DNA from: an uncultured virus (IMG/VR IMGVR_UViG_3300032050_000029)
Taxonomy: Duplodnaviria; Heunggongvirae; Uroviricota; Caudoviricetes
Length of the DNA stretch: 59,978 nt
Reading direction: 5' to 3' (one strand)
IMG/VR virus record: IMGVR_UViG_3300032050_000029
Coordinates: 62,001-121,978 of that record
In this document: piece by piece, positions 5,300 to 29,258 of the stretch
Layout of the letters: every line of letters begins with the position of its first letter
Numbering within the stretch: position 1 is the stretch's first letter
Notes under the pieces: model-generated
The model's database searches: none
What the model was told of the DNA's origin: nothing
What the model saw: only the letters and a program-made list of their open reading frames with translations
Made by a program: the position numbers and the translations under genes

Positions 5300-6643
5300 T
5301 TACCCTAATGATTTTTTCAATTGTTCAAGATCAGTTATATACATGTCCTTAGGATCAGTTTTCTTAATGGCTTCTACCTCAGATTCCTTTTCTGTTTTTT
5401 GTTTAAGTAGTTCTTCAAATCTCTCCTTAGTTAATGAATAGATTGCCATACTTAATAGGTATGTATATGAACCATCAATCTTATCATATTTGTTATCTTC
5501 CAGGTATTTAACAATGATATCTTTTGCTACATTATTTACCTTAAGTTTTCCTTCAATAATATCTTTAATGAATCTTGCCTTATTTGATATGATAAGAAGC
5601 TCTCTTCCTAATTTATCAAGAAGATAGGCCTTTCTCTTATGATAATACTGAAGTCTTATTCCAACAAAGTGGGTTACAATATCTTCAGCTTTGGTAAAGA
5701 TCTTTAATTTACCAGTCTCATCGATAGTGGTAAGGTTTTCAGTTTCTTGTGAATGAATCTTTAACAGATTTTCTAGTCTATCCTTTGAAATATAGTCCTT
5801 AAGAATTGCTCGTTGAAATTTAAGAAGGTATTCAATTTTATCTGATGAATTATCTTCATAATCAACAATGATCTTTTTATCAACCAGAGCGTTTAACCAC
5901 TCTTCATATCTCTCATAAGTAAATGAAGGTGGAATTTCTGTTACTTTTACTGTTGTACTATTTACTATTTCATATGATCCACTAATCTTCCACGTATTAG
6001 GATTACCAGGATCTCTAGTAAATGATCCCTTAAATTCACTTAACCAAGGAGGAAGTGTTTTAATCTTCTTATCCTTAAGAACGGCCAAACATGCTTCAAC
6101 TACATCTTTAGGATTACGATTAAGAATGTTAGTTGCAAATCCTACAGCAATACCAGAAGATCCATTTAAGATAACGGTTGGAACGATAGGAAGAAAGAAG
6201 TCTGGTTCAATTTCTACACCTTCTTCAATCTTATTATTAAGAAGGTCAAAATCCTGATAAATTAATCTAAAATTAGGATGTAATTTTGCACTGATGTAAC
6301 GAGGTGCACCGGCAGAAGGGGAACGTAAAGATCCAAATTGGCCAATGCCATCCAAAAGAGGTAAAGAGTTCTTAAACTTCTGTGCCATACCAACCATAGC
6401 AGATTCCAAGGAAGTATTACCATGATGATAATATGCCTCTGCCGCTACACGGCCTGCAAGTTGGAATAGTTTCATTGGCTTTTCTGCTCCATTTTTCCAG
6501 ATTTTATTTGCCACGAAAACGACCTTCCGTTGTGTTGGTTTAAGACCGTCAATACAGCTAGGGATTGCACGATTTTCTACAACATATTTGGCATACTCCA
6601 AATATTCTTTATCAAAGAATGATGTTACTGTTCTTTTTTCCAT
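5300..6643 (-). CDS. gp52: DNA topoisomerase II subunit A (T4 gp52-like)
   Basis: RAIP..DGLKPTQRK, YHHG, APRYI catalytic Tyr. Confidence 0.95.
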   Translation of the reverse strand: MEKRTVTSFFDKEYLEYAKYVVENRAIPSCIDGLKPTQRKVVFVANKIWKNGAEKPMKLFQLAGRVAAEAYYHHGNTSLESAMVGMAQKFKNSLPLLDGIGQFGSLRSPSAGAPRYISAKLHPNFRLIYQDFDLLNNKIEEGVEIEPDFFLPIVPTVILNGSSGIAVGFATNILNRNPKDVVEACLAVLKDKKIKTLPPWLSEFKGSFTRDPGNPNTWKISGSYEIVNSTTVKVTEIPPSFTYERYEEWLNALVDKKIIVDYEDNSSDKIEYLLKFQRAILKDYISKDRLENLLKIHSQETENLTTIDETGKLKIFTKAEDIVTHFVGIRLQYYHKRKAYLLDKLGRELLIISNKARFIKDIIEGKLKVNNVAKDIIVKYLEDNKYDKIDGSYTYLLSMAIYSLTKERFEELLKQKTEKESEVEAIKKTDPKDMYITDLEQLKKSLG

Positions 6644-8520
6644 TAGAAAAGAGATTTATTGCTTGTTTTAATTTCAACAGATTCGCCTAGAATCTTCTTT
6701 TTACGAGGGCTAGAGTCACCTGCAAACCAGATATTTAATGTACTGTTAAATCCATTATCTCTGGTAAGAAAGTATGATCTAGGGCTTCTAATGATCTCCT
6801 GATATTCATCGTCCTCCAATGCAGCCAATCCTTTCTTATATTCAATATTCCATGAGGATAATGATTTTTGTTTTAACTCCCATTCTTTATAATCTTCTTC
6901 AGAATAAAAGCTTAAAGTTTCCTTTCCTTTCTTTGCTACCATAAGAGGTGTTTCTACCTTAAGAACTTTACCTTCTTCAAATAACTCAGGCCAATATTTA
7001 CCAAAGAAATTAATTAGCAATGCAGAAATTGAATTCCCATCAACATCGGCATCAGTATAGAATAAGATCTTACCATATCTTAAGTCCTTTGGTTCATGAC
7101 CAATCTTTAATCCTATTGCAGCCATAAGAGATTGTACTTCTTTATTTTGTACCACCTTTGAATCAGGAATCTCTCTTACATTAATAAATTTACCGCGAAG
7201 AGGAAACGCACCTTGCGTTAGCGGATCACGGTAACGACGAAACGCAGAGGATGCAGAGTCACCTTCAAATATTGCAAGAGTACAATTTTTTCTATCACCG
7301 GTTTTCTTAGCATCGATTAATTTAATTACCTTTGACTTATCGAGGTTATTATTTAATTTTCTAAGTTTTGCTCTTTCTTCGGCTGCCTGCTTTCTTTCAA
7401 TCCAGTCAAGAACAGATTGGATGATTTCAGATGCAAATACTTGTTTAAGAATCTTTTCTGATAGTTCATGTATACTCCCAAAGTCTTTAGGTTCAGTAAT
7501 GAGTTTCTCCTTAGTTTGAGACGAGAATGCAGGATTAATAACTGTGCAATCAATAAAGAGAAAGATGTGTTGTTTTAGATCGGTTGGTTTTACATCAACC
7601 CGATATTTTTTCTTAATCTTTTCTCTAAGGTATTGGATGATTTGAAATGTAACATTATTAACATGGGTGCCACCATCCTTTGTTTCAACCGAATTGACGA
7701 ATGATATTGCTTTAAATCCTGATGTTGAATGTCCTATACCAATTTTCCAATTAGGAGACTGTTCATAGAAAACATTATCAGTATAAAGATCTGCATATTC
7801 TTTAAAGTTCTTAAACGATATTAAGGTATCATTAAGATAGATCTTAAGCAAAGTATTACATGCAGCAATATCATAAAGCCTTTTCTGAATCATTTGCAGA
7901 GAAGACTTATCAATTTTCTTCATTCCAAATCTTTCAAAATCTGCAATATAAGAAATTTCAGTATAGCCTTTCTTATGTGATTTAATTACAGGTTCTGTCT
8001 TTTTGGACATGTTATCTGAAAATACCTGCACAAATGATTTTTTACCATCACATGTTTCAATTTTGAATTCTTTACTAAAGATATTGGTTAATGTACTACC
8101 TACACCATTAGTACCTACAACAGTACGGTCTTCAGTATCATCAAAATTACTACCAGTCTTAAGATTACTAAAGATCATTTCTGGAACCCATTCTCCGTAC
8201 TCTTTATGGATCTCTACAGGAATTCCTCCATTATCCCAGATTGATATTCTGCCAGATACTTCATCAATAGTAATTTTAATCTGGTTAAGTTGAGGATTTC
8301 TTTTATGTTCATCAACTGAATTTGATACGATCTCGTCAAAAAGTTTTATGAAACCTGGATTATAAGTAATCTCCGTAGGTTCAAATTTACCTTTCTTTTC
8401 GTTAAGAAGAAATACTTCCTCGGTATGCGGTTTAATTGAACCGATGTACATACCTGGACGAAGGAGAACGTGTTCAGTGTCAGTAAGTTTTTGATACCTC
8501 TTTTCTACACTTACGGCCAT
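6643..8520 (-). CDS. gp39: DNA topoisomerase II subunit B (ATPase + TOPRIM, gp39+gp60 in one chain)
   Basis: HVLLRPGMYIGS, EGDSA, PLRGK, DADVDG, KGLA. Confidence 0.95.
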   Translation of the reverse strand: MAVSVEKRYQKLTDTEHVLLRPGMYIGSIKPHTEEVFLLNEKKGKFEPTEITYNPGFIKLFDEIVSNSVDEHKRNPQLNQIKITIDEVSGRISIWDNGGIPVEIHKEYGEWVPEMIFSNLKTGSNFDDTEDRTVVGTNGVGSTLTNIFSKEFKIETCDGKKSFVQVFSDNMSKKTEPVIKSHKKGYTEISYIADFERFGMKKIDKSSLQMIQKRLYDIAACNTLLKIYLNDTLISFKNFKEYADLYTDNVFYEQSPNWKIGIGHSTSGFKAISFVNSVETKDGGTHVNNVTFQIIQYLREKIKKKYRVDVKPTDLKQHIFLFIDCTVINPAFSSQTKEKLITEPKDFGSIHELSEKILKQVFASEIIQSVLDWIERKQAAEERAKLRKLNNNLDKSKVIKLIDAKKTGDRKNCTLAIFEGDSASSAFRRYRDPLTQGAFPLRGKFINVREIPDSKVVQNKEVQSLMAAIGLKIGHEPKDLRYGKILFYTDADVDGNSISALLINFFGKYWPELFEEGKVLKVETPLMVAKKGKETLSFYSEEDYKEWELKQKSLSSWNIEYKKGLAALEDDEYQEIIRSPRSYFLTRDNGFNSTLNIWFAGDSSPRKKKILGESVEIKTSNKSLF

Positions 8521-8555
8521 ACCTTTTATTTTTATATGCTAAAACTCTGTTTGGT

Positions 8556-8753
8556 TTAATTATATTGATGTCTAAGTGTAAGTTTCAGAAAGGCTTTATA
8601 TGAATTATAGGCTTCCCTAAATCGTGGATCTTTTTCATTATGTTTCCATTTTGCTGAAAACAAATGAATAAGTTTAACCAAAGACTCGTAATGAACGGTC
8701 TTGTTGTCTTTGTTTAGGATAACCCTGCGTACCCAAATAAAATCCTTTTTCAT
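8556..8753 (-). CDS. Hypothetical protein
   Basis: 65-aa ORF after the promoter at 8770. Confidence 0.55.
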   Translation of the reverse strand: MKKDFIWVRRVILNKDNKTVHYESLVKLIHLFSAKWKHNEKDPRFREAYNSYKAFLKLTLRHQYN

Positions 8754-8769
8754 ACCTAAACTATTTATT

Positions 8770-8800
8770 CAAATATAATACATAGATATGATTTCTGAAA
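8770..8800 (-). promoter_or_regulatory. SigmaA-like promoter TTTC-N19-TATATTTG
   Basis: Exact spacing match to the repeated motif. Confidence 0.6.
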
Positions 8801-8803
8801 GAG

Positions 8804-8888
8804 CGGAAGGTGAGGGGATCGAACCCTCGCGCCGTTGCCGACCTAACAGTTTAGCAAACTGCCCCCTTCACCACTTGGGTAACCTTCC
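8804..8888 (-). tRNA. tRNA-Ser(GCT)
   Basis: Cloverleaf with long variable arm; loop TTGCTAA. Confidence 0.93.
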
Positions 8889-8889
8889 T

Positions 8890-9339
8890 TTATCTACAGC
8901 AATAATCAGCTGCACGAGTTGCAATTTGCTCGTTAGGTTTTACATTTACTTTATAGCCCAGAGAATTTGCCCACCCTTTAGCCGCAGAAATAATTCTATA
9001 TGATTTGTGTTCTTCATCTCCGTTATAGTCCATATCAATTTGAACCTTAACATTAATCTGTTGTGTAAGCCATTCAGCGGTTTCAATACTCATCTCGGCT
9101 TCTTTCCAAAGACGTGTCCACATATCAGTGATCTTTGGCATTTTATGTTTAGTAAAAATATAATGTACACCTGATGATCCAAAGCGATATGCTATCACTG
9201 TGCTATACATAGTTACATCACCATGATTTTGTGAATCGGTTCCAATGTGAATCGATGCATGAGGATAATTCTTTAACTGCTCGAGGGTGTGATCTATCAC
9301 ATTAACCTTGACTCCATTTGTCTTTCTAAACACCTTCAT
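8890..9339 (-). CDS. RNase H-like YkuK/DUF458 family protein, inside the tRNA array
   Basis: IHIGTDSQ, RLWKEAEMS, IDMDYN, ATRAAD. Confidence 0.8.
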   Translation of the reverse strand: MKVFRKTNGVKVNVIDHTLEQLKNYPHASIHIGTDSQNHGDVTMYSTVIAYRFGSSGVHYIFTKHKMPKITDMWTRLWKEAEMSIETAEWLTQQINVKVQIDMDYNGDEEHKSYRIISAAKGWANSLGYKVNVKPNEQIATRAADYCCR

Positions 9340-9356
9340 TCATTTTATGTATTTCG

Positions 9357-9429
9357 CACGCCTGGATGGGTTCGAACCACCGACACCTGGTTTTGGAGAC
9401 CAGTGCTCTACCAACTGAGCTACAGACGC
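9357..9429 (-). tRNA. tRNA-Trp(CCA)
   Basis: CTGGT-CTCCAAA-ACCAG. Confidence 0.95.
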
Positions 9430-9437
9430 ATTTATTG

Positions 9438-9508
9438 AGGCACCAACAGGAATCGAACCTGTGTGAAAGGTTTTGCAGACCTCCACCTAACCACTCGGCC
9501 ATAGTGCC
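9438..9508 (-). tRNA. tRNA-Cys(GCA)
   Basis: GAGGT-CTGCAAA-ACCTT, U73. Confidence 0.95.
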
Positions 9509-9514
9509 ATTATG

Positions 9515-9589
9515 GGTGATTAATGGGAGTCGAACCCACGACCTTCTGAACCACAATCAGATGCTCTAACCAACTGAGCTATAACCACC
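9515..9589 (-). tRNA. tRNA-His(GTG)
   Basis: TCTGA-TTGTGGT-TCAGA; encoded G-1 and C73. Confidence 0.95.
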
Positions 9590-9594
9590 ATGTG

Positions 9595-9668
9595 TTGGAA
9601 TAGGCAGACTCGAACTGCCGACCCTTCGCGTATCAGACGAATGCTCTAACCAACTGAGCTATATTCCA
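9595..9668 (-). tRNA. tRNA-Ile(GAT)
   Basis: TTCGT-CTGATAC-GCGAA. Confidence 0.95.
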
Positions 9669-9726
9669 ATGTCACAGGACCCGCACCCTGTTCTGAACTT
9701 GTACTTTGTTCTATTAAGCGTTTTTG

Positions 9727-9798
9727 CTCCCCGGGGGAATTACGATATCCCGACCCCATGATTAACAGTCATGTGCTCTGCCTCTGAGCTACCGAGGA
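9727..9798 (-). tRNA. tRNA-Asn(GTT), atypical T-arm
   Basis: CATGA-CTGTTAA-TCATG; T-arm GGGATATCGTAATTCCC. Confidence 0.85.
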
Positions 9799-9881
9799 AT
9801 AAAAGTAATAAGCAGAGGCTTTGGGTTAGACACGCCCTAATATTACATAGGAGACCCCTTAGATGCTTACCTATTACTTAG

Positions 9882-9954
9882 TGGTGATGGACGGAATCGA
9901 ACCGCCGACACAAGGATTTTCAGTCCTTTGCTCTACCAACTGAGCTACATCACC
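9882..9954 (-). tRNA. tRNA-Phe(GAA)
   Basis: AAGGA-CTGAAAA-TCCTT. Confidence 0.95.
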
Positions 9955-9959
9955 ATTAG

Positions 9960-10032
9960 TAGTCAATAAAGGACTCGAACCCTTATCTCTTGATCCGTAG
10001 TCAAGTGTTCTATCCAATTGAACTAATCGACT
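9960..10032 (-). tRNA. tRNA-Arg(ACG)
   Basis: CTTGA-CTACGGA-TCAAG. Confidence 0.95.
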
Positions 10033-10037
10033 AAATG

Positions 10038-10111
10038 TGGACCTTGCAGGGCTCGAACCTGCGACCTGCGGATTATGAGTCCGATGCTCTAACCAACTGA
10101 GCTAAAGGTCC
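10038..10111 (-). tRNA. tRNA with CAT anticodon (likely Ile2/lysidine type; elongator Met possible)
   Basis: CGGA-CTCATAA-TCCG; body GGACCTTTAGCTCAG resembles Ile2. Confidence 0.85.
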
Positions 10112-10116
10112 AAATG

Positions 10117-10199
10117 TTGGAAGGGACGGATTCGAACCGCCGTACTCCGAAGAGAGCAGATTTACAGTCTGCCGGTTTTAACCACTCACCCACCTTCCA
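10117..10199 (-). tRNA. tRNA-Tyr(GTA)
   Basis: GCAGA-CTGTAAA-TCTGC with long variable arm. Confidence 0.95.
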
Positions 10200-10321
10200 A
10201 TAAAAGAGAGACTTCGGGTCTTTCGGGCATTCTGTGATATAATCAACACATCTGAATCTCCTAATGCCTTTTTGACAGTCAGCGGGATTAAGACCATATC
10301 ATACAGCTTCACTATCTCTCT

Positions 10322-10396
10322 TGGTGCACCCTGATGGTTTCGAACCACCGACCCTCTGCATGTAAGGCAGATGCTCTCCCACTGAGCTAAGGGTGC
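10322..10396 (-). tRNA. tRNA-Val(TAC), CCA encoded
   Basis: TCTGC-CTTACAT-GCAGA. Confidence 0.95.
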
Positions 10397-10401
10397 ATTA
10401 G

Positions 10402-10482
10402 TACCGAAGAAGGGACTCGAACCCTTAAGCCGTTAGGCACTGGTTCCTAAGACCAGCGTGTATACCATTCCACCACTTCGGC
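10402..10482 (-). tRNA. tRNA-Leu(TAG)
   Basis: CTGGT-CTTAGGA-ACCAG with variable arm. Confidence 0.95.
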
Positions 10483-10582
10483 AAGTTGTAGGATATCGCT
10501 TAACCTACTGTGATTGCGCCTTTCACATTTACATCTTATAGCTACATCCTAAACGGGAAAACTATGATGTACGATTTTTTTG

Positions 10583-10655
10583 TGATCCCGGCGCGGCTCG
10601 AACGCGCGGCCCATACATTAAAAGTGTATTGCTCTACCAACTGAGCTACGAGATC
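10583..10655 (-). tRNA. tRNA-Lys(TTT)
   Basis: ATACA-CTTTTAA-TGTAT. Confidence 0.95.
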
Positions 10656-10659
10656 TTAG

Positions 10660-10733
10660 TGGAGGTAGAGGGATTCGAACCCACGACCCTCTGCGTGCAA
10701 GGCAGATGCTCTAGCCAACTGAGCTATACCCCC
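10660..10733 (-). tRNA. tRNA-Ala(TGC)
   Basis: TCTGC-CTTGCAC-GCAGA; G3:U70. Confidence 0.95.
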
Positions 10734-10805
10734 AAAGTGTAGGTAGCCTTCCTACTGTGTAACCGTACGTGTTACTTTAGGTTATGCATTAACCTCGGCA
10801 TTTTT

Positions 10806-10882
10806 TGGCGGCCCGTACGGGACTCGAACCCGTGACCTTCGCCGTGACAGGGCGACATTGTAACCATCTCTACTAACGAGCC
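10806..10882 (-). tRNA. tRNA-Asp(GTC), CCA encoded
   Basis: TCGCC-CTGTCAC-GGCGA. Confidence 0.95.
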
Positions 10883-10989
10883 AATAAGAGGGTGGCGAAA
10901 GATTTGCGATCCTTCATTTCTACTTCTGAATATGCTGATTAAGTCGACTTCACAGCAGGAATTTCATTTTCGTCTAGATACCACCTTTG

Positions 10990-11064
10990 TTGCGGGGATG
11001 GGAATCGAACCCATGTGGTTCGGCTTATGAGACCGAGCTGGAACCATCTCCAGTCCACCCCGCA
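10990..11064 (-). tRNA. tRNA-Met(CAT), initiator-like
   Basis: TGCGGGGTGG acceptor stem resembles fMet; TCGGT-CTCATAA-GCCGA. Confidence 0.85.
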
Positions 11065-11070
11065 ATGTTG

Positions 11071-11144
11071 TAGTCCGTACGGGGATCGAACCCGTAAGCT
11101 TCTCCGTGAAAGGGAGATGTCCTAACCAATTAGACGAACGGACC
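11071..11144 (-). tRNA. tRNA-Glu(TTC)
   Basis: TCTCC-CTTTCAC-GGAGA. Confidence 0.95.
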
Positions 11145-11156
11145 AAATAATGTTTG

Positions 11157-11229
11157 AGCCTCCGATAGGATTCGAACCTACGACCCACTGATTACAAATC
11201 AGTAGCTCTACCAACTGAGCTACAGAGGC
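11157..11229 (-). tRNA. tRNA-Thr(TGT)
   Basis: ACTGA-TTTGTAA-TCAGT. Confidence 0.95.
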
Positions 11230-11235
11230 AAAATA

Positions 11236-11291
11236 CAGGATACGTTTTGGCTTCAAAGTTGCAGTTTGATAAAATTTGCTGTATGTATCCT
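11236..11291 (-). ncRNA. Putative armless tRNA-like RNA, copy 1
   Basis: AGGATAC/GTATCCT stem + ATACAGCAA + TCAAA-CTGCAAC-TTTGA arm; homologous to 11925-11980. Confidence 0.55.
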
Positions 11292-11293
11292 TG

Positions 11294-11366
11294 TAGGGAA
11301 GACAGGGCTCGAACCTGCGACCCCCTGGTCCCAAACCAGGTGCGCTACCAACTGCGCTACTTCCCT
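11294..11366 (-). tRNA. tRNA-Pro(TGG)
   Basis: CCTGG-TTTGGGA-CCAGG. Confidence 0.95.
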
Positions 11367-11371
11367 ATATG

Positions 11372-11442
11372 TTGCCCCCAAAGGATTCGAACCTCTACAC
11401 TGTGGACCAAAACCACATGTCCTGCCATTAGACGAGAGGGCA
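11372..11442 (-). tRNA. tRNA-Gln(TTG)
   Basis: TGTGG-TTTTGGT-CCACA. Confidence 0.95.
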
Positions 11443-11450
11443 ATTTAAAG

Positions 11451-11536
11451 CGGAAAGAGAGGGATTCGAACCCCCGATACCTCGCGGTATGCCGGTTTTC
11501 AAGACCGGTGTAATCAACCAACTCTACCATCTTTCC
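11451..11536 (-). tRNA. tRNA-Ser(TGA)
   Basis: CCGGT-CTTGAAA-ACCGG with long variable arm. Confidence 0.95.
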
Positions 11537-11546
11537 GTTGGTACCT

Positions 11547-11563
11547 CAATATGTCAAAGAACG
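11547..11563 (-). promoter_or_regulatory. boxA-like antitermination site CGTTCTTTGACATATTG
   Basis: Resembles rrn boxA (TGCTCTTTAACA); near-identical copy at 12365-12381. Confidence 0.7.
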
Positions 11564-11584
11564 AATTTGAAATTCTATTCTAAA

Positions 11585-11615
11585 CAAATATAACTCATTC
11601 AATCTTTTTCTGAAA
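11585..11615 (-). promoter_or_regulatory. SigmaA-like promoter for the tRNA array
   Basis: TTTC-N19-TATATTTG. Confidence 0.6.
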
Positions 11616-11624
11616 GAGACCCAT

Positions 11625-11661
11625 AAAAAAAGCCTCCCGGAATTTTTTATCCAGGAGGCTT
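11625..11661 (-). terminator. Intrinsic terminator (putative attenuator)
   Basis: AAGCCTCCTGGA-8nt-TCCGGGAGGC followed by T7. Confidence 0.85.
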
Positions 11662-11684
11662 AGTATTATAAGTGTTTTATCTTA

Positions 11685-11780
11685 TCAGCTCCTGCCTGGA
11701 CTTGGTGTAATTGAATCCGCCTGCGGAAAATTCTTTTCCACATTACTAAGAATCCAATATGTACATCCGTGCAGTTGCAT
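11685..11780 (-). CDS. Putative leader peptide (31 aa) containing all 20 amino acids
   Basis: MQLHGCTYWILSNVEKNFPQADSITPSPGRS then TGA TAA; A-rich initiation region and TATATATAAAT upstream. Confidence 0.75.
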   Translation of the reverse strand: MQLHGCTYWILSNVEKNFPQADSITPSPGRS

Positions 11781-11846
11781 TGAAATTGTTTTATTTGTTA
11801 TTTATATATACTCACATTGTGTTTGTTTCACATGTGTGAGAATTTG

Positions 11847-11919
<73 letters not shown>

Positions 11920-11924
11920 AGAAA

Positions 11925-11980
11925 CAGGATGCATTGGGTTGTAGTTTACAAGTCTAGTCCAAAGTTGCTGTATGCATCCT
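11925..11980 (-). ncRNA. Putative armless tRNA-like RNA, copy 2
   Basis: AGGATGCAT/ATGCATCCT stem + ACAGCAA + TAGA-CTTGTAA-ACTA. Confidence 0.55.
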
Positions 11981-11983
11981 TTT

Positions 11984-12365
11984 TGGTGGAGGTGATGGGA
12001 TTCGAACCCATGTCCGACTAAGGAACCTAAATCCCTCATTCACAAGCTTAGGCCATTTTTCTTAATGGCCAAAATAAATGGTTCCTATTTTGACATCGTT
12101 ACCAATAACTATGTCGAGTTCACTTATAAGGTAGTACTCTGAACGAGACCTTGAATTCTCATTCTTTTTAATATCTCACGATGAGTGCGAGACTGATTAG
12201 GCTGCTACAGCGTAATCAGCACCAATGAAAGCCATTGCGTCTTCCCAGGTGAATGAAGATTTCTCTTCGCCTTTTATTGTGCGATAGGTGTTTAAGGGTT
12301 TCCATCTAACCCTGCTTGCATCAGTAACCTAATTTCAGCTTAATCGTCAAAACCTGGTCACCCCC
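11984..12365 (-). ncRNA. ssrA: tmRNA
   Basis: 5' GGGGGTGA..GGTTTTGAC; 3' T-arm GGTTCGAATCC..CCTCCACCA with G3:U70; tag ORF ending YAVAA*. Confidence 0.95.
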
Positions 12366-12381
12366 AATATGTTAAAGAACG
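12365..12381 (-). promoter_or_regulatory. boxA-like site CGTTCTTTAACATATTG before tmRNA
   Basis: Contains TCTTTAACA boxA core. Confidence 0.7.
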
Positions 12382-12404
12382 TACCTTTATTTATATAATC
12401 GCGG

Positions 12405-12707
12405 TTAACGATTGTTTACTGGAGCTCTCCAAGATTCCATTTGTTCGCGGCGATTCTTTTGAATCATATCCCATTCCATACGATCATATAGAACATAGGA
12501 ATACTTCCACCCACAGTCATCATCATAGTCAGAATCTTCTTCTACCACAATAGAATGACCAAGGATTTCTTGAAGAGTTTTCCAATCTGTTGGTCTCCAA
12601 TACCCAAAGCGAAGGTAATTATGATTACCGCCACCAAAGATACGGCATACCTCGAATTGCCCTAAGGCATTTTCAATCTGTTTGAGTTTTTCAATTTCTA
12701 TTTTCAT
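12405..12707 (-). CDS. Hypothetical protein
   Basis: ORF in an early-promoter operon. Confidence 0.65.
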   Translation of the reverse strand: MKIEIEKLKQIENALGQFEVCRIFGGGNHNYLRFGYWRPTDWKTLQEILGHSIVVEEDSDYDDDCGWKYSYVLYDRMEWDMIQKNRREQMESWRAPVNNR

Positions 12708-12931
12708 CTTTCTAAAATTACAAAGTTACCAAATTCGCGATCAAATACTTGAAGGAGATGTTCATAATCACCACTCATCATTTCAGTGGTAAGTTCTCCG
12801 CGCCTATTCGGTTGATACCCTAATTGCTTTGCTAAGTTTTGTGCAAGACCAATTAGTGCGAATGCATTTCCATCAGGGCCTGTAAGATCAATTACTATAG
12901 GGCCAGTTCTTTCGTGTTTTTCTCGTATCAT
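12704..12931 (-). CDS. Hypothetical protein
   Basis: IDLTGPDGNAFALIG motif; start MIREK. Confidence 0.7.
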   Translation of the reverse strand: MIREKHERTGPIVIDLTGPDGNAFALIGLAQNLAKQLGYQPNRRGELTTEMMSGDYEHLLQVFDREFGNFVILER

Positions 12932-12932
12932 A

Positions 12933-13139
12933 TTACATGCATTGATAAGTTTCAGACTTAGACCAGTATTCATAGAATGCGGCAGCAGATTCTGTAACTT
13001 CAGTAAGCTTAATACTTTTGAAGTAGACTCGGTTTCCAAAGACAGACTTTAGATTGACCGTATTCTTTGTGCAGTTTGATACCCGGTAGAATCCACCTTG
13101 GTATGTTACGATTGATCCTTTGTTAATTTGATTTTCCAT
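12933..13139 (-). CDS. Hypothetical protein
   Basis: First ORF after the promoter at 13157. Confidence 0.65.
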   Translation of the reverse strand: MENQINKGSIVTYQGGFYRVSNCTKNTVNLKSVFGNRVYFKSIKLTEVTESAAAFYEYWSKSETYQCM

Positions 13140-28829: not shown

Positions 28830-29258
28830 TTAAGAATTTATTTGTTGTTCTATTTCTTCAACTTCAACCACTTCCTTTTTGAAAGTTTCACCTAAAATAT
28901 ATGAACCTACAAACGGTGTTAATGCTGCAAAATATGCGCTTACTCCAATAAGATCTGAACCATTTACGATTACCCATAAACCTACGGCTAGCCATAATCC
29001 AATTGTAATGTACATCATTACTTCTCTTCTACTGTTAGGGCCTGGCAAAAATATTGAAGAATTTTTACTTCTACGAACGCTTTCACCAAATATATATGAA
29101 GCAACGAAACCTGTTAAAGAAACAAAATATGCAGCCAAAGCAGTAAAATCGGTTTCAAAATATGTTGCAGTAATACCTACAGCTAACCATAAAAGTACCA
29201 CAAGATATGTTACGCATTCACGCTTAGATTCGCAACATCTCCTTAAAAAACTTTTCAT
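28830..29258 (-). CDS. 4-TM membrane protein with internal duplication
   Basis: Two copies of RE..Y....LWLAVG...AYF..LT.FV.SYI.GE. Confidence 0.7.
   Translation of the reverse strand: MKSFLRRCCESKRECVTYLVVLLWLAVGITATYFETDFTALAAYFVSLTGFVASYIFGESVRRSKNSSIFLPGPNSRREVMMYITIGLWLAVGLWVIVNGSDLIGVSAYFAALTPFVGSYILGETFKKEVVEVEEIEQQINS

What the first reader, a model, noticed from the sequence alone, without database searches (positions are those of the whole stretch)
11547..11810. All-20-amino-acid leader peptide plus attenuator upstream of the phage tRNA operon (candidate general tRNA-shortage sensor)
Seen: a 31-codon ORF (11780->11685) MQLHGCTYWILSNVEKNFPQADSITPSPGRS contains all 20 amino acids. The first 10 codons are all different residues and 19 residues occur in the first 22 codons. 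Repeated residues often switch codon (Leu CTG/CTT, Gln CAA/CAG, Ser AGT/TCA/AGC, Pro CCG/CCA, Gly GGA/GGC). Its last codons (TCCAGGCAGGAGCT, 11700-11687) can pair with the 5' arm (AGCCTCCTGGA) of the terminator 24 nt downstream. After the terminator come a boxA and 21 tRNAs. Known: trp/his-type attenuators use a leader enriched in one amino acid. Inference: a ribosome reaching the stop covers the antiterminator strand and transcription terminates. A stall at any of codons ~2-23 (an uncharged or nuclease-cleaved host tRNA) frees that strand and allows read-through, so tRNAs are supplied on demand, for example against anticodon-nuclease defence. Caveats: a separate sigmaA-like promoter (11585-11615) lies after the terminator, so attenuation would control only the late/upstream transcript; the Arg codon lies inside the antiterminator strand, so Arg shortage would not be sensed.
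Basis: partly seen in the sequence, partly recalled or inferred. Interest (0 to 1): 0.96.

Follow-up and report, generated by a model that had tools for sequence, protein, structure and literature searches.

The report
All-amino-acid leader before phage tRNAs
A tiny conserved reading frame that uses all, or all but one, of the 20 amino acids sits just before a transcription stop signal and a block of 21 tRNA genes in an uncultured freshwater phage, and may let the phage gauge whether the cell's tRNA supply is adequate.

Summary
The 31-codon ORF at 11780->11685 (-) holds all 20 amino acids. About 0.006 such ATG ORFs of 31 codons or fewer are expected in the whole window.

The property holds up in relatives:
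- All four distinct peptides of the close clade keep 31 codons and 20 types.
- A homologue only 32% identical (34 codons), in front of a 30-tRNA array in another phage record, again has all 20. The chance estimate is 0.005-0.017.
- Two further variants have 19 types (counted by eye).
- None of about 3,900 other short ORFs in 1.58 Mb of held DNA has all 20.

The ORF coincides with a long hairpin. Its 3' end can pair with the 5' arm of a terminator 21-24 nt downstream. That pairing is significant in the close clade but not in the distant homologue.

A promoter-like stretch and a conserved 17-nt boxA-like motif lie between the terminator and the array.

Best reading (confidence 0.4): a translated trp-type leader selected for amino-acid completeness, tuning read-through into the tRNA array. 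Translation and regulation are not shown. No such leader appeared in four literature searches.

The parts
11685..11780 (-). Leader ORF: 31 codons plus stop, all 20 amino-acid types
   Evidence: It stays at 31 codons in all 8 full-length spacer variants. A 34-codon homologue lies at L336:1511-1615.
11685..11783 (-). Long imperfect hairpin coextensive with the ORF (regions 1:2); start and stop codons sit at its base
   Evidence: -31.4 kcal/mol, z -3.2, 2 of 200 shuffles fold as well. It is kept in six variants with z -1.8 to -5.0. Its helices are 89-99% paired across 8 sequences.
11690..11702 (-). Region 2: the ORF's 3' part (codons 27-31), able to pair with the terminator 5' arm as a candidate antiterminator
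   Evidence: duplex -16.3 kcal/mol, reached by 20 of 1000 shuffles (V1), 34 of 1000 (V2) and 2 of 1000 (V5). It forms in nascent-RNA folds that lack the 3' arm. It is invariant apart from one C>U at the bulged base in L321.
11623..11661 (-). Intrinsic terminator (regions 3:4): 12-bp stem, 8-nt loop, T run
   Evidence: All 12 pairs stay standard in 7 sequences, apart from one alignment gap in L015, with one G-C to A-T double change. Stem energy is -19.6 to -22.4 kcal/mol.
11662..11684 (-). Hypervariable 23-nt spacer between the stop codon and the terminator; its length is conserved at 21-24 nt
11801..11831 (-). Conserved blocks upstream of the ORF: two hexamer-like blocks at a fixed 17-nt spacing. 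This is a possible own promoter, followed by an A-rich, SD-less leader (11781-11800).
   Evidence: The blocks and their spacing are the same in the window clade and in G002. The promoter role is inferred only. The simple sigma-70 scan did not list it.
11811..11840 (-). Small hairpin just after tRNA-Gly
   Evidence: and helix 1 (92% of cells paired). It is not present in G002.
11846..11919 (-). tRNA-Gly(gcc), upstream of the ORF on the same strand
11984..12365 (-). Phage tmRNA, further upstream on the same strand
   Evidence: 110 bits. A 382-nt RNA contig in run X16 covers 11986-12365 with no differences.
12365..12381 (-). First copy of the 17-nt boxA-like motif, abutting the tmRNA 5' end
   Evidence: the motif occurs exactly twice in 121,978 bp, and the reversed control occurs 0 times.
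11547..11563 (-). Second copy of the 17-nt boxA-like motif, 10 nt before tRNA-Ser(tga)
   Evidence: A near-identical motif precedes the G002 array. It is invariant in 8 variants.
11585..11614 (-). Promoter-like stretch after the terminator
   Evidence: One search gives a 9 of 12 sigma-70-type match at 11614-11587. An 8-mer at 11592-11585 fits the Bacteroidota -7 box, whose consensus is recalled and not tested. It is only partly conserved in L015 and G002.
8803..11536 (-). Array of 21 tRNA genes, the presumed regulated unit

Best explanation
This is a translated leader ORF whose content, rather than its sequence, is under selection: it carries (nearly) every amino acid once. It works as a ribosome-mediated, trp-type transcription attenuator in front of the phage's tRNA array.

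Inferred mechanism:
1. Transcription enters from a start just upstream of the ORF, or from the tmRNA/tRNA-Gly unit.
2. The two halves of the ORF fold on each other (1:2).
3. A ribosome that runs quickly to the stop codon covers region 2 (codons 27-31). The terminator (3:4), 23 nt further on, then forms and transcription ends.
4. A ribosome delayed anywhere in roughly codons 2-21, because any one aminoacyl-tRNA is short, leaves region 2 free to pair with the terminator's 5' arm (2:3). Polymerase then reads on, past the boxA-like motif, into the 21 tRNA genes.
5. Phage tRNAs then restore translation speed and shut read-through off again, giving supply-on-demand feedback on top of a basal promoter.

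Shown: the ORF, its amino-acid completeness and its conservation, the hairpin, the terminator, the complementarity, and the position before tRNA arrays in two diverged phages.

Inferred: translation, coupling to transcription, the direction of control, and any link to host tRNA-cleaving defences.
For: 1. Completeness is far beyond chance. P is 2.4e-4 to 5.6e-4 per 31-codon ORF, and 0.006 are expected in the window.

2. Replication in relatives:
- All 8 full-length spacer variants keep a 31-codon ORF. Their 4 distinct peptides all have 20 types.
- Between the window and L015, 8 residues differ. Two single-copy residues (Lys16, Phe18) are lost at their site but present at another. Retention probability is 0.008-0.014 for random substitutions.
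- A covariance model found one distant homologue, G002:28253-28421 (31.8 bits, E 1.3e-5). Its 34-codon ORF is 32% identical and again has 20 types. P is 0.005-0.008 with the shared residues fixed, or 0.017 with uniform amino acids.
- It lies upstream of all 30 tRNA genes of that record.
- P0006, from a 1.84-billion-protein search (E 5.4e-4), is a 31-residue variant with 19 types. By my reading, five single-copy residues of the L015 peptide have moved to other positions in it.

3. Controls: among 3,905 distinct ATG ORFs of 20-40 aa in 385 held records (1.58 Mb), only the 5 family peptides have 20 types. In three unrelated tRNA-bearing phage regions, 0 of 560 do.

4. Weak constraint on the peptide sequence fits a leader. 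Window versus L015 shows 5 synonymous and 12 non-synonymous base changes in 8 codons, counted by eye from the output. The stop codon changes TGA>TAA at the same place. There are no indels in the ORF, while the flanks have several.

5. Attenuator anatomy:
- The hairpin has z -3.2 and is kept in the variants.
- The 2:3 duplex is reached by 20, 34 and 2 of 1000 shuffles.
- The pair next to the core changes G.U / U-A / A-U while the codon changes Ser/Ile/Asp.
- The terminator is conserved with one compensatory pair.
- The stop-to-terminator distance stays at 21-24 nt although that spacer is hypervariable.

6. The start context matches the phage's genes. Only 7 of 110 long ORFs have an SD-like motif, and positions -8 to -17 are A-rich. 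The leader's upstream region is the same.

7. In an RNA library, a 334-nt contig (run X18) covers 11448-11772. It bridges the ORF, the terminator and tRNA-Ser.
Against: - No evidence of translation, and no Ribo-seq or Term-seq data.
- Two of 7 distinct peptides lack one amino acid: P0006 has no Cys, and the last 31 residues of P0002 have no Ala (counted by eye). Completeness is therefore not absolute.
- If the 17 substituted positions between the window and L015 are held fixed, retention of all 20 is unremarkable at 0.06-0.27. Part of the retention may reflect RNA-level constraint.
- The two 'synonymous' changes in the inner stem also preserve base pairs.
- In G002 the hairpin (z -1.07, 74 of 500) and the 2:3 duplex (268 of 1000) are not significant.
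- Full-length RNA strongly prefers the terminator form: -55.1 against -38.0 kcal/mol for the nascent antiterminator form.
- A promoter-like stretch and the 17-nt boxA-like motif lie after the terminator. The same motif also precedes the tmRNA. This suggests an independent start for the array.
- Some residues sit where a stalled ribosome would cover region 2: Arg30 here, and Ala26, Cys29 and Asn30 in G002.
- Met is only the start codon in 3 of the 5 peptides taken from DNA.
- The nine bases of codons 7-9 are invariant even at synonymous sites and recur in the boxA-like motif. This points to a nucleic-acid-level function.
- The family is narrow. No homologue was found in 50,697 GenBank phage records or in 12 of 13 other relatives' records searched.
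Confidence: 0.4

Rival explanations
1. The ORF is translated and selected for amino-acid completeness, but it does not act through the 2:3 antiterminator. It could be a stand-alone mini-transcript whose translation time or stalling feeds into something else, such as mRNA or sRNA stability, tmRNA engagement, or a decoy or probe for tRNA-targeting defences. In that case the terminator simply ends this small unit.
For: Completeness is conserved, while the 2:3 pairing is not significant in G002. Conserved upstream blocks at a fixed 17-nt spacing suggest the ORF has its own promoter. Amino acids found only in the last codons (Arg30; Ala, Cys and Asn in G002) would matter only if the whole ORF must be read. 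A promoter-like stretch and the boxA-like motif after the terminator give the array its own start.
Against: The position directly before tRNA arrays is conserved in two diverged phages. The fixed short distance to the terminator, the significant 2:3 complementarity in the window's clade and one covarying pair all fit attenuation. No alternative output is visible in the sequence.
Confidence: 0.2
2. This is a non-coding element. The long hairpin plus terminator is the structured 3' trailer or sRNA of the tmRNA/tRNA-Gly unit, or of the upstream gene in G002. The ORF and its amino-acid diversity are by-products.
For: The hairpin is significant and conserved. Substitutions at 'synonymous' sites keep base pairs. 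Codon 26-27 replacements extend or rebuild a helix in L013 and L015. The dN/dS between the window and L015 is close to neutral by eye. Retention of all 20 is unremarkable once the substituted positions are fixed. Codons 7-9 are conserved at the nucleotide level. Two variants have only 19 types.
Against: An untranslated sequence has no reason to keep 19-20 amino-acid types in every member. This includes a 32%-identical homologue (P 0.005-0.017), set against 0 of about 3,900 other short ORFs. The frame, length and stop position are kept with no indels, and lost single-copy residues reappear elsewhere. The hairpin itself is weak in G002.
Confidence: 0.2
3. This is a small phage protein with its own function, and its amino-acid diversity is incidental.
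For: The ORF is conserved. Ten columns are invariant in the 5-peptide alignment: the first two residues, Thr-Tyr-Trp at 7-9, and Gly-Arg near the end. It may have its own promoter and has its own terminator.
Against: Only 32% identity at a distance where the neighbouring GyrB-like protein is 76% identical. The dN/dS is near neutral. There is no Pfam-like or structural signal to test at 31 aa. Real proteins of this phage almost never show 20 types in 31 residues: 4 of 59,820 stop-free windows at 3 places, 2 of them this ORF.
Confidence: 0.1

Closest known systems
Leader-peptide (ribosome-mediated) transcription attenuators of amino-acid biosynthesis operons (trp, his, phe, thr, leu, ilv types)
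   Same: A short ORF lies ahead of an intrinsic terminator. The ORF's 5' part pairs with its 3' part (1:2). The 3' part can instead pair with the terminator's 5' arm (2:3). The stop codon is placed so that a terminating ribosome covers region 2 but not the terminator.
   Different: There is no run of one regulatory codon; instead each amino acid appears about once. The downstream genes are tRNAs, not biosynthetic enzymes. The setting is a phage. A promoter-like stretch and a boxA-like motif sit between the terminator and the genes. There is no Rfam leader family hit at gathering score.
Antibiotic-sensing leader-peptide attenuators (erm, msrD, vmlR and yxjB types; known to me from the listing and abstracts and from recall)
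   Same: They respond to ribosome stalling in general rather than to one amino acid, and they control read-through of a terminator.
   Different: Those sense drug-bound ribosomes through specific arrest peptides and control resistance genes. Here no arrest motif is known, and the proposed signal is any slow codon.
T-box riboswitches
   Same: They have the same logical task: sensing tRNA charging and switching a terminator or antiterminator ahead of translation-related genes.
   Different: T-boxes bind one uncharged tRNA directly, without translation. No T-box match was found and no specifier or T-box sequence was seen. T-boxes are recalled as absent from most Bacteroidota.
rrn-type boxA antitermination leaders
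   Same: A conserved boxA-like 17-mer sits just before the stable-RNA genes. It occurs twice in this record and once in G002.
   Different: This concerns the element after the terminator, not the ORF. The resemblance to boxA rests on a recalled consensus, and binding of NusB/NusE is untested.
tRNA 3' external-spacer-derived sRNAs (recalled: 3'ETS-leuZ of E. coli)
   Same: A structured RNA lies between a tRNA gene and a terminator.
   Different: In G002 the element follows a protein-coding gene, not a tRNA. A conserved ORF with 19-20 amino-acid types is not a feature of such sRNAs.

Membership tests
Leader-peptide transcription attenuator (trp/his type) | Short ORF with a usable start upstream of the controlled genes | tested here: met
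   A 31-codon ATG ORF is conserved in length and frame. Its A-rich, SD-less upstream region resembles the phage's own genes. Translation itself is not shown.
Leader-peptide transcription attenuator (trp/his type) | Intrinsic terminator shortly after the leader ORF | tested here: met
   A 12-bp stem plus T run lies 23 nt after the stop codon. It is conserved, with one compensatory change. G002 has one too.
Leader-peptide transcription attenuator (trp/his type) | Antiterminator pairing that excludes the terminator and is exposed or masked by ribosome position | tested here: inconclusive
   It is significant in the window's clade, reached by 20, 34 and 2 of 1000 shuffles, and it forms in nascent folds. 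It is not significant in G002 (268 of 1000).
Leader-peptide transcription attenuator (trp/his type) | Leader enriched in codons of the amino acid that the operon supplies | tested here: not met
   No residue is enriched. There are 20 types in 31 codons, and the most frequent is Ser with 4. This is the defining departure from the family.
Leader-peptide transcription attenuator (trp/his type) | Controlled genes depend on read-through, with no promoter in between | tested here: inconclusive
   There are a promoter-like match at 11614-11587 and a boxA-like motif that also precedes the tmRNA. RNA contigs do bridge the terminator, but DNA carry-over cannot be excluded.
Leader-peptide transcription attenuator (trp/his type) | Read-through rises when the cognate aminoacyl-tRNA is short | not testable with these tools
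   This needs reporter or in vitro coupled assays.
Rfam leader, riboswitch or sRNA families (including T-box) | Match to a curated covariance model at gathering score | tested here: not met
   Over 8000-13000, only the tRNAs and the tmRNA pass. The best matches over the element are ncr1575 at 27.6 bits (cut-off 60) and L10_leader at 24.4 bits (cut-off 44).
Type I toxin mRNA (small ORF in a long 5'-3' paired RNA) | Hydrophobic membrane peptide | tested here: not met
   The translation has no hydrophobic stretch. It is polar and mixed.

The most novel reading that the evidence does not exclude
The ORF is a general aminoacyl-tRNA supply gauge. By carrying each amino acid about once, its translation time reports the scarcest charged tRNA. 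A delayed ribosome switches the terminator off, so the phage's own tRNA array is transcribed on demand and shut down again once the phage tRNAs restore speed. Such a homeostat would also answer host defences that cleave particular tRNAs.
Probability: 0.35. Interest if true: 0.95.

Novelty: new variant of a known kind. Interest (0 to 1): 0.8.

Why it matters
Known leader peptides each sense one amino acid, or a drug-stalled ribosome. A leader built to sample all twenty, placed before tRNA genes, would be a new design principle: a sensor of overall decoding capacity.

It would also be the first regulatory logic described for phage tRNA arrays, whose expression control is largely unknown. It would bear on how phages cope with codon-usage mismatch, host shut-off and tRNA-cleaving defences.

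The claim is directly testable with a roughly 200-nt element. If it holds, the element could serve as a compact reporter of tRNA charging.

Even if attenuation is wrong, selection for amino-acid completeness in a 31-34-codon ORF would still need an explanation.

Tried and rejected
1. Codon match to the phage's tRNAs. Under strict wobble, 30 of 31 leader codons are read by the record's 26 tRNAs. Given the peptide and gene codon usage, P is 0.002. But 13 of 340 short ORFs score as high, and with relaxed U34 reading the match is unremarkable (29 of 31 against a 90% baseline). In G002, by eye, about 28-29 of 34 codons match, and no tRNA-His or tRNA-Lys was found in that fragment. I dropped this as evidence.

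2. Covariation in the ORF hairpin. There are too few changes: 2 pairs with double changes across the whole structure (one in the ORF hairpin), reached by 16 of 500 shuffles. The terminator helix was mis-registered in that call and was redone.

3. Searches for more homologues:
- The metagenome scan gave 6 loci, all close relatives.
- Two gapped patterns gave only known members plus chance hits, and a third gave only L015's contig.
- Model R1/R2 was run on 13 relatives' records (two requested records were not held). It gave G002, plus one false positive in G006: a plain terminator after a gene, with no ORF.
- blastn against 50,697 phage records found nothing.

4. Seven more distant relatives' spacers around the tmRNA and tRNAs have no comparable ORF.

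5. Three unrelated tRNA-bearing phages (Hallingskeid, PA5oct, S-WAM2) have no all-20 short ORF. This is too small a sample to say the feature is unique.

6. Promoter scans are uninformative: counts equal those of shuffles.

7. RNA contigs. No contig of the four runs covers 11781-11817. I draw nothing from that gap.

8. The boxA-like 11-mer with 1 mismatch is no more frequent than its reversed control. Only the 17-mer is specific.

The counts for P0006 and for the last 31 residues of P0002 are by eye.

11. P0003 looks like an unrelated repeat protein, and P0004 was not fetched. P0005 is recorded under Noticed in passing.
Full report
**What is there**

On the minus strand the window carries, in order:
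- a tmRNA (12365-11984);
- tRNA-Gly(gcc) (11919-11846);
- a 309-nt spacer;
- 21 tRNA genes (11536-8803).

The spacer holds the reported ORF, 11780->11685, 31 codons. Its translation has all 20 amino-acid types. The first ten codons are all different, 19 types are reached by codon 22, and Arg comes only at codon 30. Met is present only as the start codon.

Twenty-three nt after the stop lies a clean intrinsic terminator: 12 pairs plus a T run, 11661-11623.

**Is it more than chance?**

- For one 31-codon ORF, P(all 20) is 2.4e-4 to 5.6e-4 at spacer, genome or ORF composition, and 2.1e-3 even for equal amino-acid frequencies.
- It is the only one of 243 ATG ORFs of 20-40 aa in the window with 20 types. 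The same holds for 531 in the 121,978-bp record, or 1,021 with GTG/TTG starts.
- The expected number of such ATG ORFs of 31 aa or fewer in the window is 0.006.
- A scan of very many windows would still turn up such ORFs by chance. The real test is therefore replication in relatives.

**Phage and host**

- The record is one 122-kb contig, 35% G+C, rated about 40% complete.
- It encodes a tail sheath, a T4-type large terminase and GyrB/GyrA-like topoisomerase subunits.
- Its exonuclease's named relatives are mostly Flavobacterium and Croceibacter phages.
- Only 7 of 110 long ORFs have an SD-like motif, and positions -8 to -17 are A-rich. From recall, that is the Bacteroidota style of start region.
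- The leader's upstream region looks the same.
- DNA runs that hold the stretch are labelled lake/freshwater or fungus metagenomes.

**Close relatives**

- Seven IMG/VR loci carry the identical terminator.
- A search with the GyrB-like protein gave 77 loci at 100-56% identity.
- The tmRNA / Gly / spacer / Ser layout is present in 10 of those loci.
- A profile of the spacer found 41 copies among the records held, giving 9 distinct sequences, one of them truncated.
- All 8 full-length variants keep a 31-codon ORF. The 4 distinct peptides all have 20 types.
- The nearest variants differ by three base changes in the ORF, all third-position and synonymous. The 23-nt stop-to-terminator spacer differs at 6-7 positions.
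- L015, whose GyrB is 87% identical, differs at 18 ORF bases and 8 residues. The stop codon changes TGA>TAA in place, and there is no indel in the ORF while the flanks have several.
- Two single-copy residues of the window peptide, Lys16 and Phe18, are replaced in L015, but Lys and Phe appear at positions 17 and 24.
- With 17 random coding substitutions, all 20 types survive in 0.8-1.4% of stop-free trials.
- If the same 17 positions are mutated to random bases, the figure is 6-27%. This comparison alone therefore cannot separate selection for completeness from site-specific constraint.

**A distant homologue**

- A covariance model of the ORF hairpin plus terminator was run on whole records of four more distant relatives. 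It hit one: G002:28253-28421, 31.8 bits, E 1.3e-5.
- Homology is clear. Two upstream blocks are identical and have the same 17-nt spacing. The first two codons and codons 7-9 are the same. A 12-bp terminator follows 21 nt after the stop.
- The ORF there has 34 codons, is 32% identical to the window's peptide, and again contains all 20 amino acids.
- With the 10-12 shared residues held fixed and the rest drawn at random, P(all 20) is 0.005-0.008, or 0.010-0.017 with equal amino-acid frequencies.
- In G002 the ORF follows a protein-coding gene. It lies about 800 nt upstream of the first of 30 tRNA genes, all on the same strand. The element's constant neighbour is therefore the start of a tRNA array, not the tmRNA.

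**Protein-library search**

A profile of the five peptides was run against 1.84 billion representative proteins. It returned 6 hits at E <= 1e-3:
- P0001 is the L015 peptide.
- P0002 is a 99-residue call on a 954-nt contig. Its last 31 residues are the window peptide with Ala21>Val. By my count that part has 19 types and lacks Ala.
- P0006 is a 31-residue peptide from two metagenome contigs. By my count it shares 16 residues with the L015 peptide and has 19 types, lacking Cys.
- In P0006, six single-copy residues of the L015 peptide are replaced at their site, and five of them (Tyr, Val, Glu, Ala, Phe) reappear at other positions.
I also could not fetch the DNA.

In total, 5 of 7 distinct family peptides have 20 types and 2 have 19.

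**Controls**

- Among 3,905 distinct ATG ORFs of 20-40 aa in all 385 records held (1.58 Mb), the only ones with 20 types are the five family members taken from DNA.
- Three unrelated tRNA-bearing phage regions gave 0 of 560.

**RNA structure**

- The ORF coincides with a long imperfect hairpin: -31.4 kcal/mol, z -3.2, 2 of 200 shuffles fold as well. Start and stop codons lie at its base.
- The hairpin is kept in six variants, with z -1.8 (L015) to -5.0. Its helices are 89-99% paired.
- Replacements at codons 26-27 extend or rebuild a helix in L013 and L015. This shows RNA-level selection on sites where the amino acid changes freely.
- ORF nt 79-91 can pair with the terminator's 5' arm: -16.3 kcal/mol. 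That is reached by 20 of 1000 shuffles in the window, 34 of 1000 in L013 and 2 of 1000 in L015.
- The pair flanking the core is G.U, U-A and A-U in the three variants, while the codon reads Ser, Ile and Asp.
- The only substitution inside region 2 falls on the bulged base (L321).
- In folds of nascent RNA that lacks the terminator's 3' arm, the 2:3 pairing forms whether the ribosome is absent or placed at codon 10 or 20. It cannot form with a ribosome at the stop.
- Full-length RNA prefers the hairpin plus terminator form at -55.1 kcal/mol. Any switch would therefore be kinetic.
- The terminator itself is fully conserved, with one G-C>A-T double change.
- In G002 the hairpin (z -1.07) and the 2:3 duplex (-10.3 kcal/mol, 268 of 1000) are not distinguishable from chance. 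By eye, though, the homologous pairing retains one C-G>U-A compensation.

**After the terminator**

- There is a weak promoter-like match at 11614-11587.
- A 17-nt boxA-like motif occurs exactly twice in the record. One copy is 10 nt before tRNA-Ser(tga), at 11563-11547. The other abuts the tmRNA 5' end, at 12381-12365. The reversed control occurs 0 times.
- A near-identical motif precedes the G002 array.
- This argues that the array has its own start and antitermination signal. The ORF/terminator would then modulate extra input rather than being the sole gate.

**RNA data**

Only assembled contigs were available, so this is weak evidence.
- One 382-nt contig equals the predicted tmRNA.
- A 334-nt contig in an RNA library spans 11448-11772. 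It bridges the ORF, the terminator and tRNA-Ser.
- A 164-nt contig spans 11492-11655.
- DNA carry-over cannot be excluded.

**Reading**

An untranslated sequence has no reason to keep 19-20 amino-acid types through this much divergence. I therefore think the ORF is translated and selected for completeness, at roughly 0.6.

The most economical mechanism for a leader ORF with 1:2, 2:3 and 3:4 pairings, a fixed short distance to a terminator, and tRNA genes downstream is trp-type attenuation that responds to any slow codon (0.4). The rivals are:
- a different output of the same sensor (0.2);
- a non-coding structured trailer (0.2);
- a small protein (0.1).

Points against the simple model:
- the downstream promoter and boxA-like motif;
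- the weak 2:3 pairing in G002;
- residues that occur only where a stalled ribosome would mask region 2;
- the nucleotide-level conservation of codons 7-9, whose nine bases recur in the boxA-like motif.

**Comparison and novelty**

- No Rfam family matches.
- Four full-text searches found no leader peptide with all amino acids and none controlling tRNA genes. I read only listings and abstracts.
- The element fits the architecture of leader-peptide attenuators but fails their defining enrichment for one amino acid. It is best called a new variant of that kind.
- So far it is confined to a narrow clade of uncultured freshwater phages.

Noticed in passing
window 11984-12365 (-): The phage tmRNA has an unusually long 24-residue tag, whereas relatives carry 9-10-residue tags. 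A 382-nt contig in an RNA library matches 11986-12365 exactly.
   Followed up: partly
window 11547-11563 and 12365-12381 (-); G002 about 28866-28883 (+): A 17-nt boxA-like motif occurs exactly twice in the 122-kb record, directly before the tmRNA and before the first tRNA of the array. It occurs again before the G002 array. It could be an antitermination or processing signal, or part of a phage-specific promoter.
   Followed up: partly
window 11754-11762 (-); L336:1529-1537: The nine bases encoding Thr7-Tyr8-Trp9 of the leader are invariant in all members, including at synonymous sites. The same 9-mer forms the 3' part of the boxA-like motif before the tmRNA and before the G002 array. This is unexplained.
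   Followed up: partly
G000:C1:1690-5159 (outside the window): A second, scattered set of tRNAs lies here: Gly(tcc), Arg(tct), Leu(taa) and Ile(tat). The record therefore holds 26 tRNAs plus the tmRNA.
   Followed up: no
L336:1670-1900 (G002): Two tandem copies of a module of about 117 nt lie between the leader's terminator and the first tRNA. Each has a promoter-like stretch and a shorter boxA-like word.
   Followed up: no
L008-L084: tRNA content next to the conserved GyrB-like gene varies widely among relatives, from none through tmRNA plus one tRNA to 20-30 tRNAs. The arrays are gained and lost quickly.
   Followed up: no
P0005 (125 aa) and P0002 (99 aa): P0005 holds two tandem repeats of about 57 residues. 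Each contains a stretch resembling leader residues 6-22, within a long open frame. P0002 fuses the leader in frame to an upstream fragment on a 954-nt contig. These may be rearranged or duplicated leader regions.
   Followed up: no
window 5300-8520 (-): GyrB/ParE-like and GyrA/ParC-like topoisomerase subunit genes lie directly downstream of the tRNA array.
   Followed up: no
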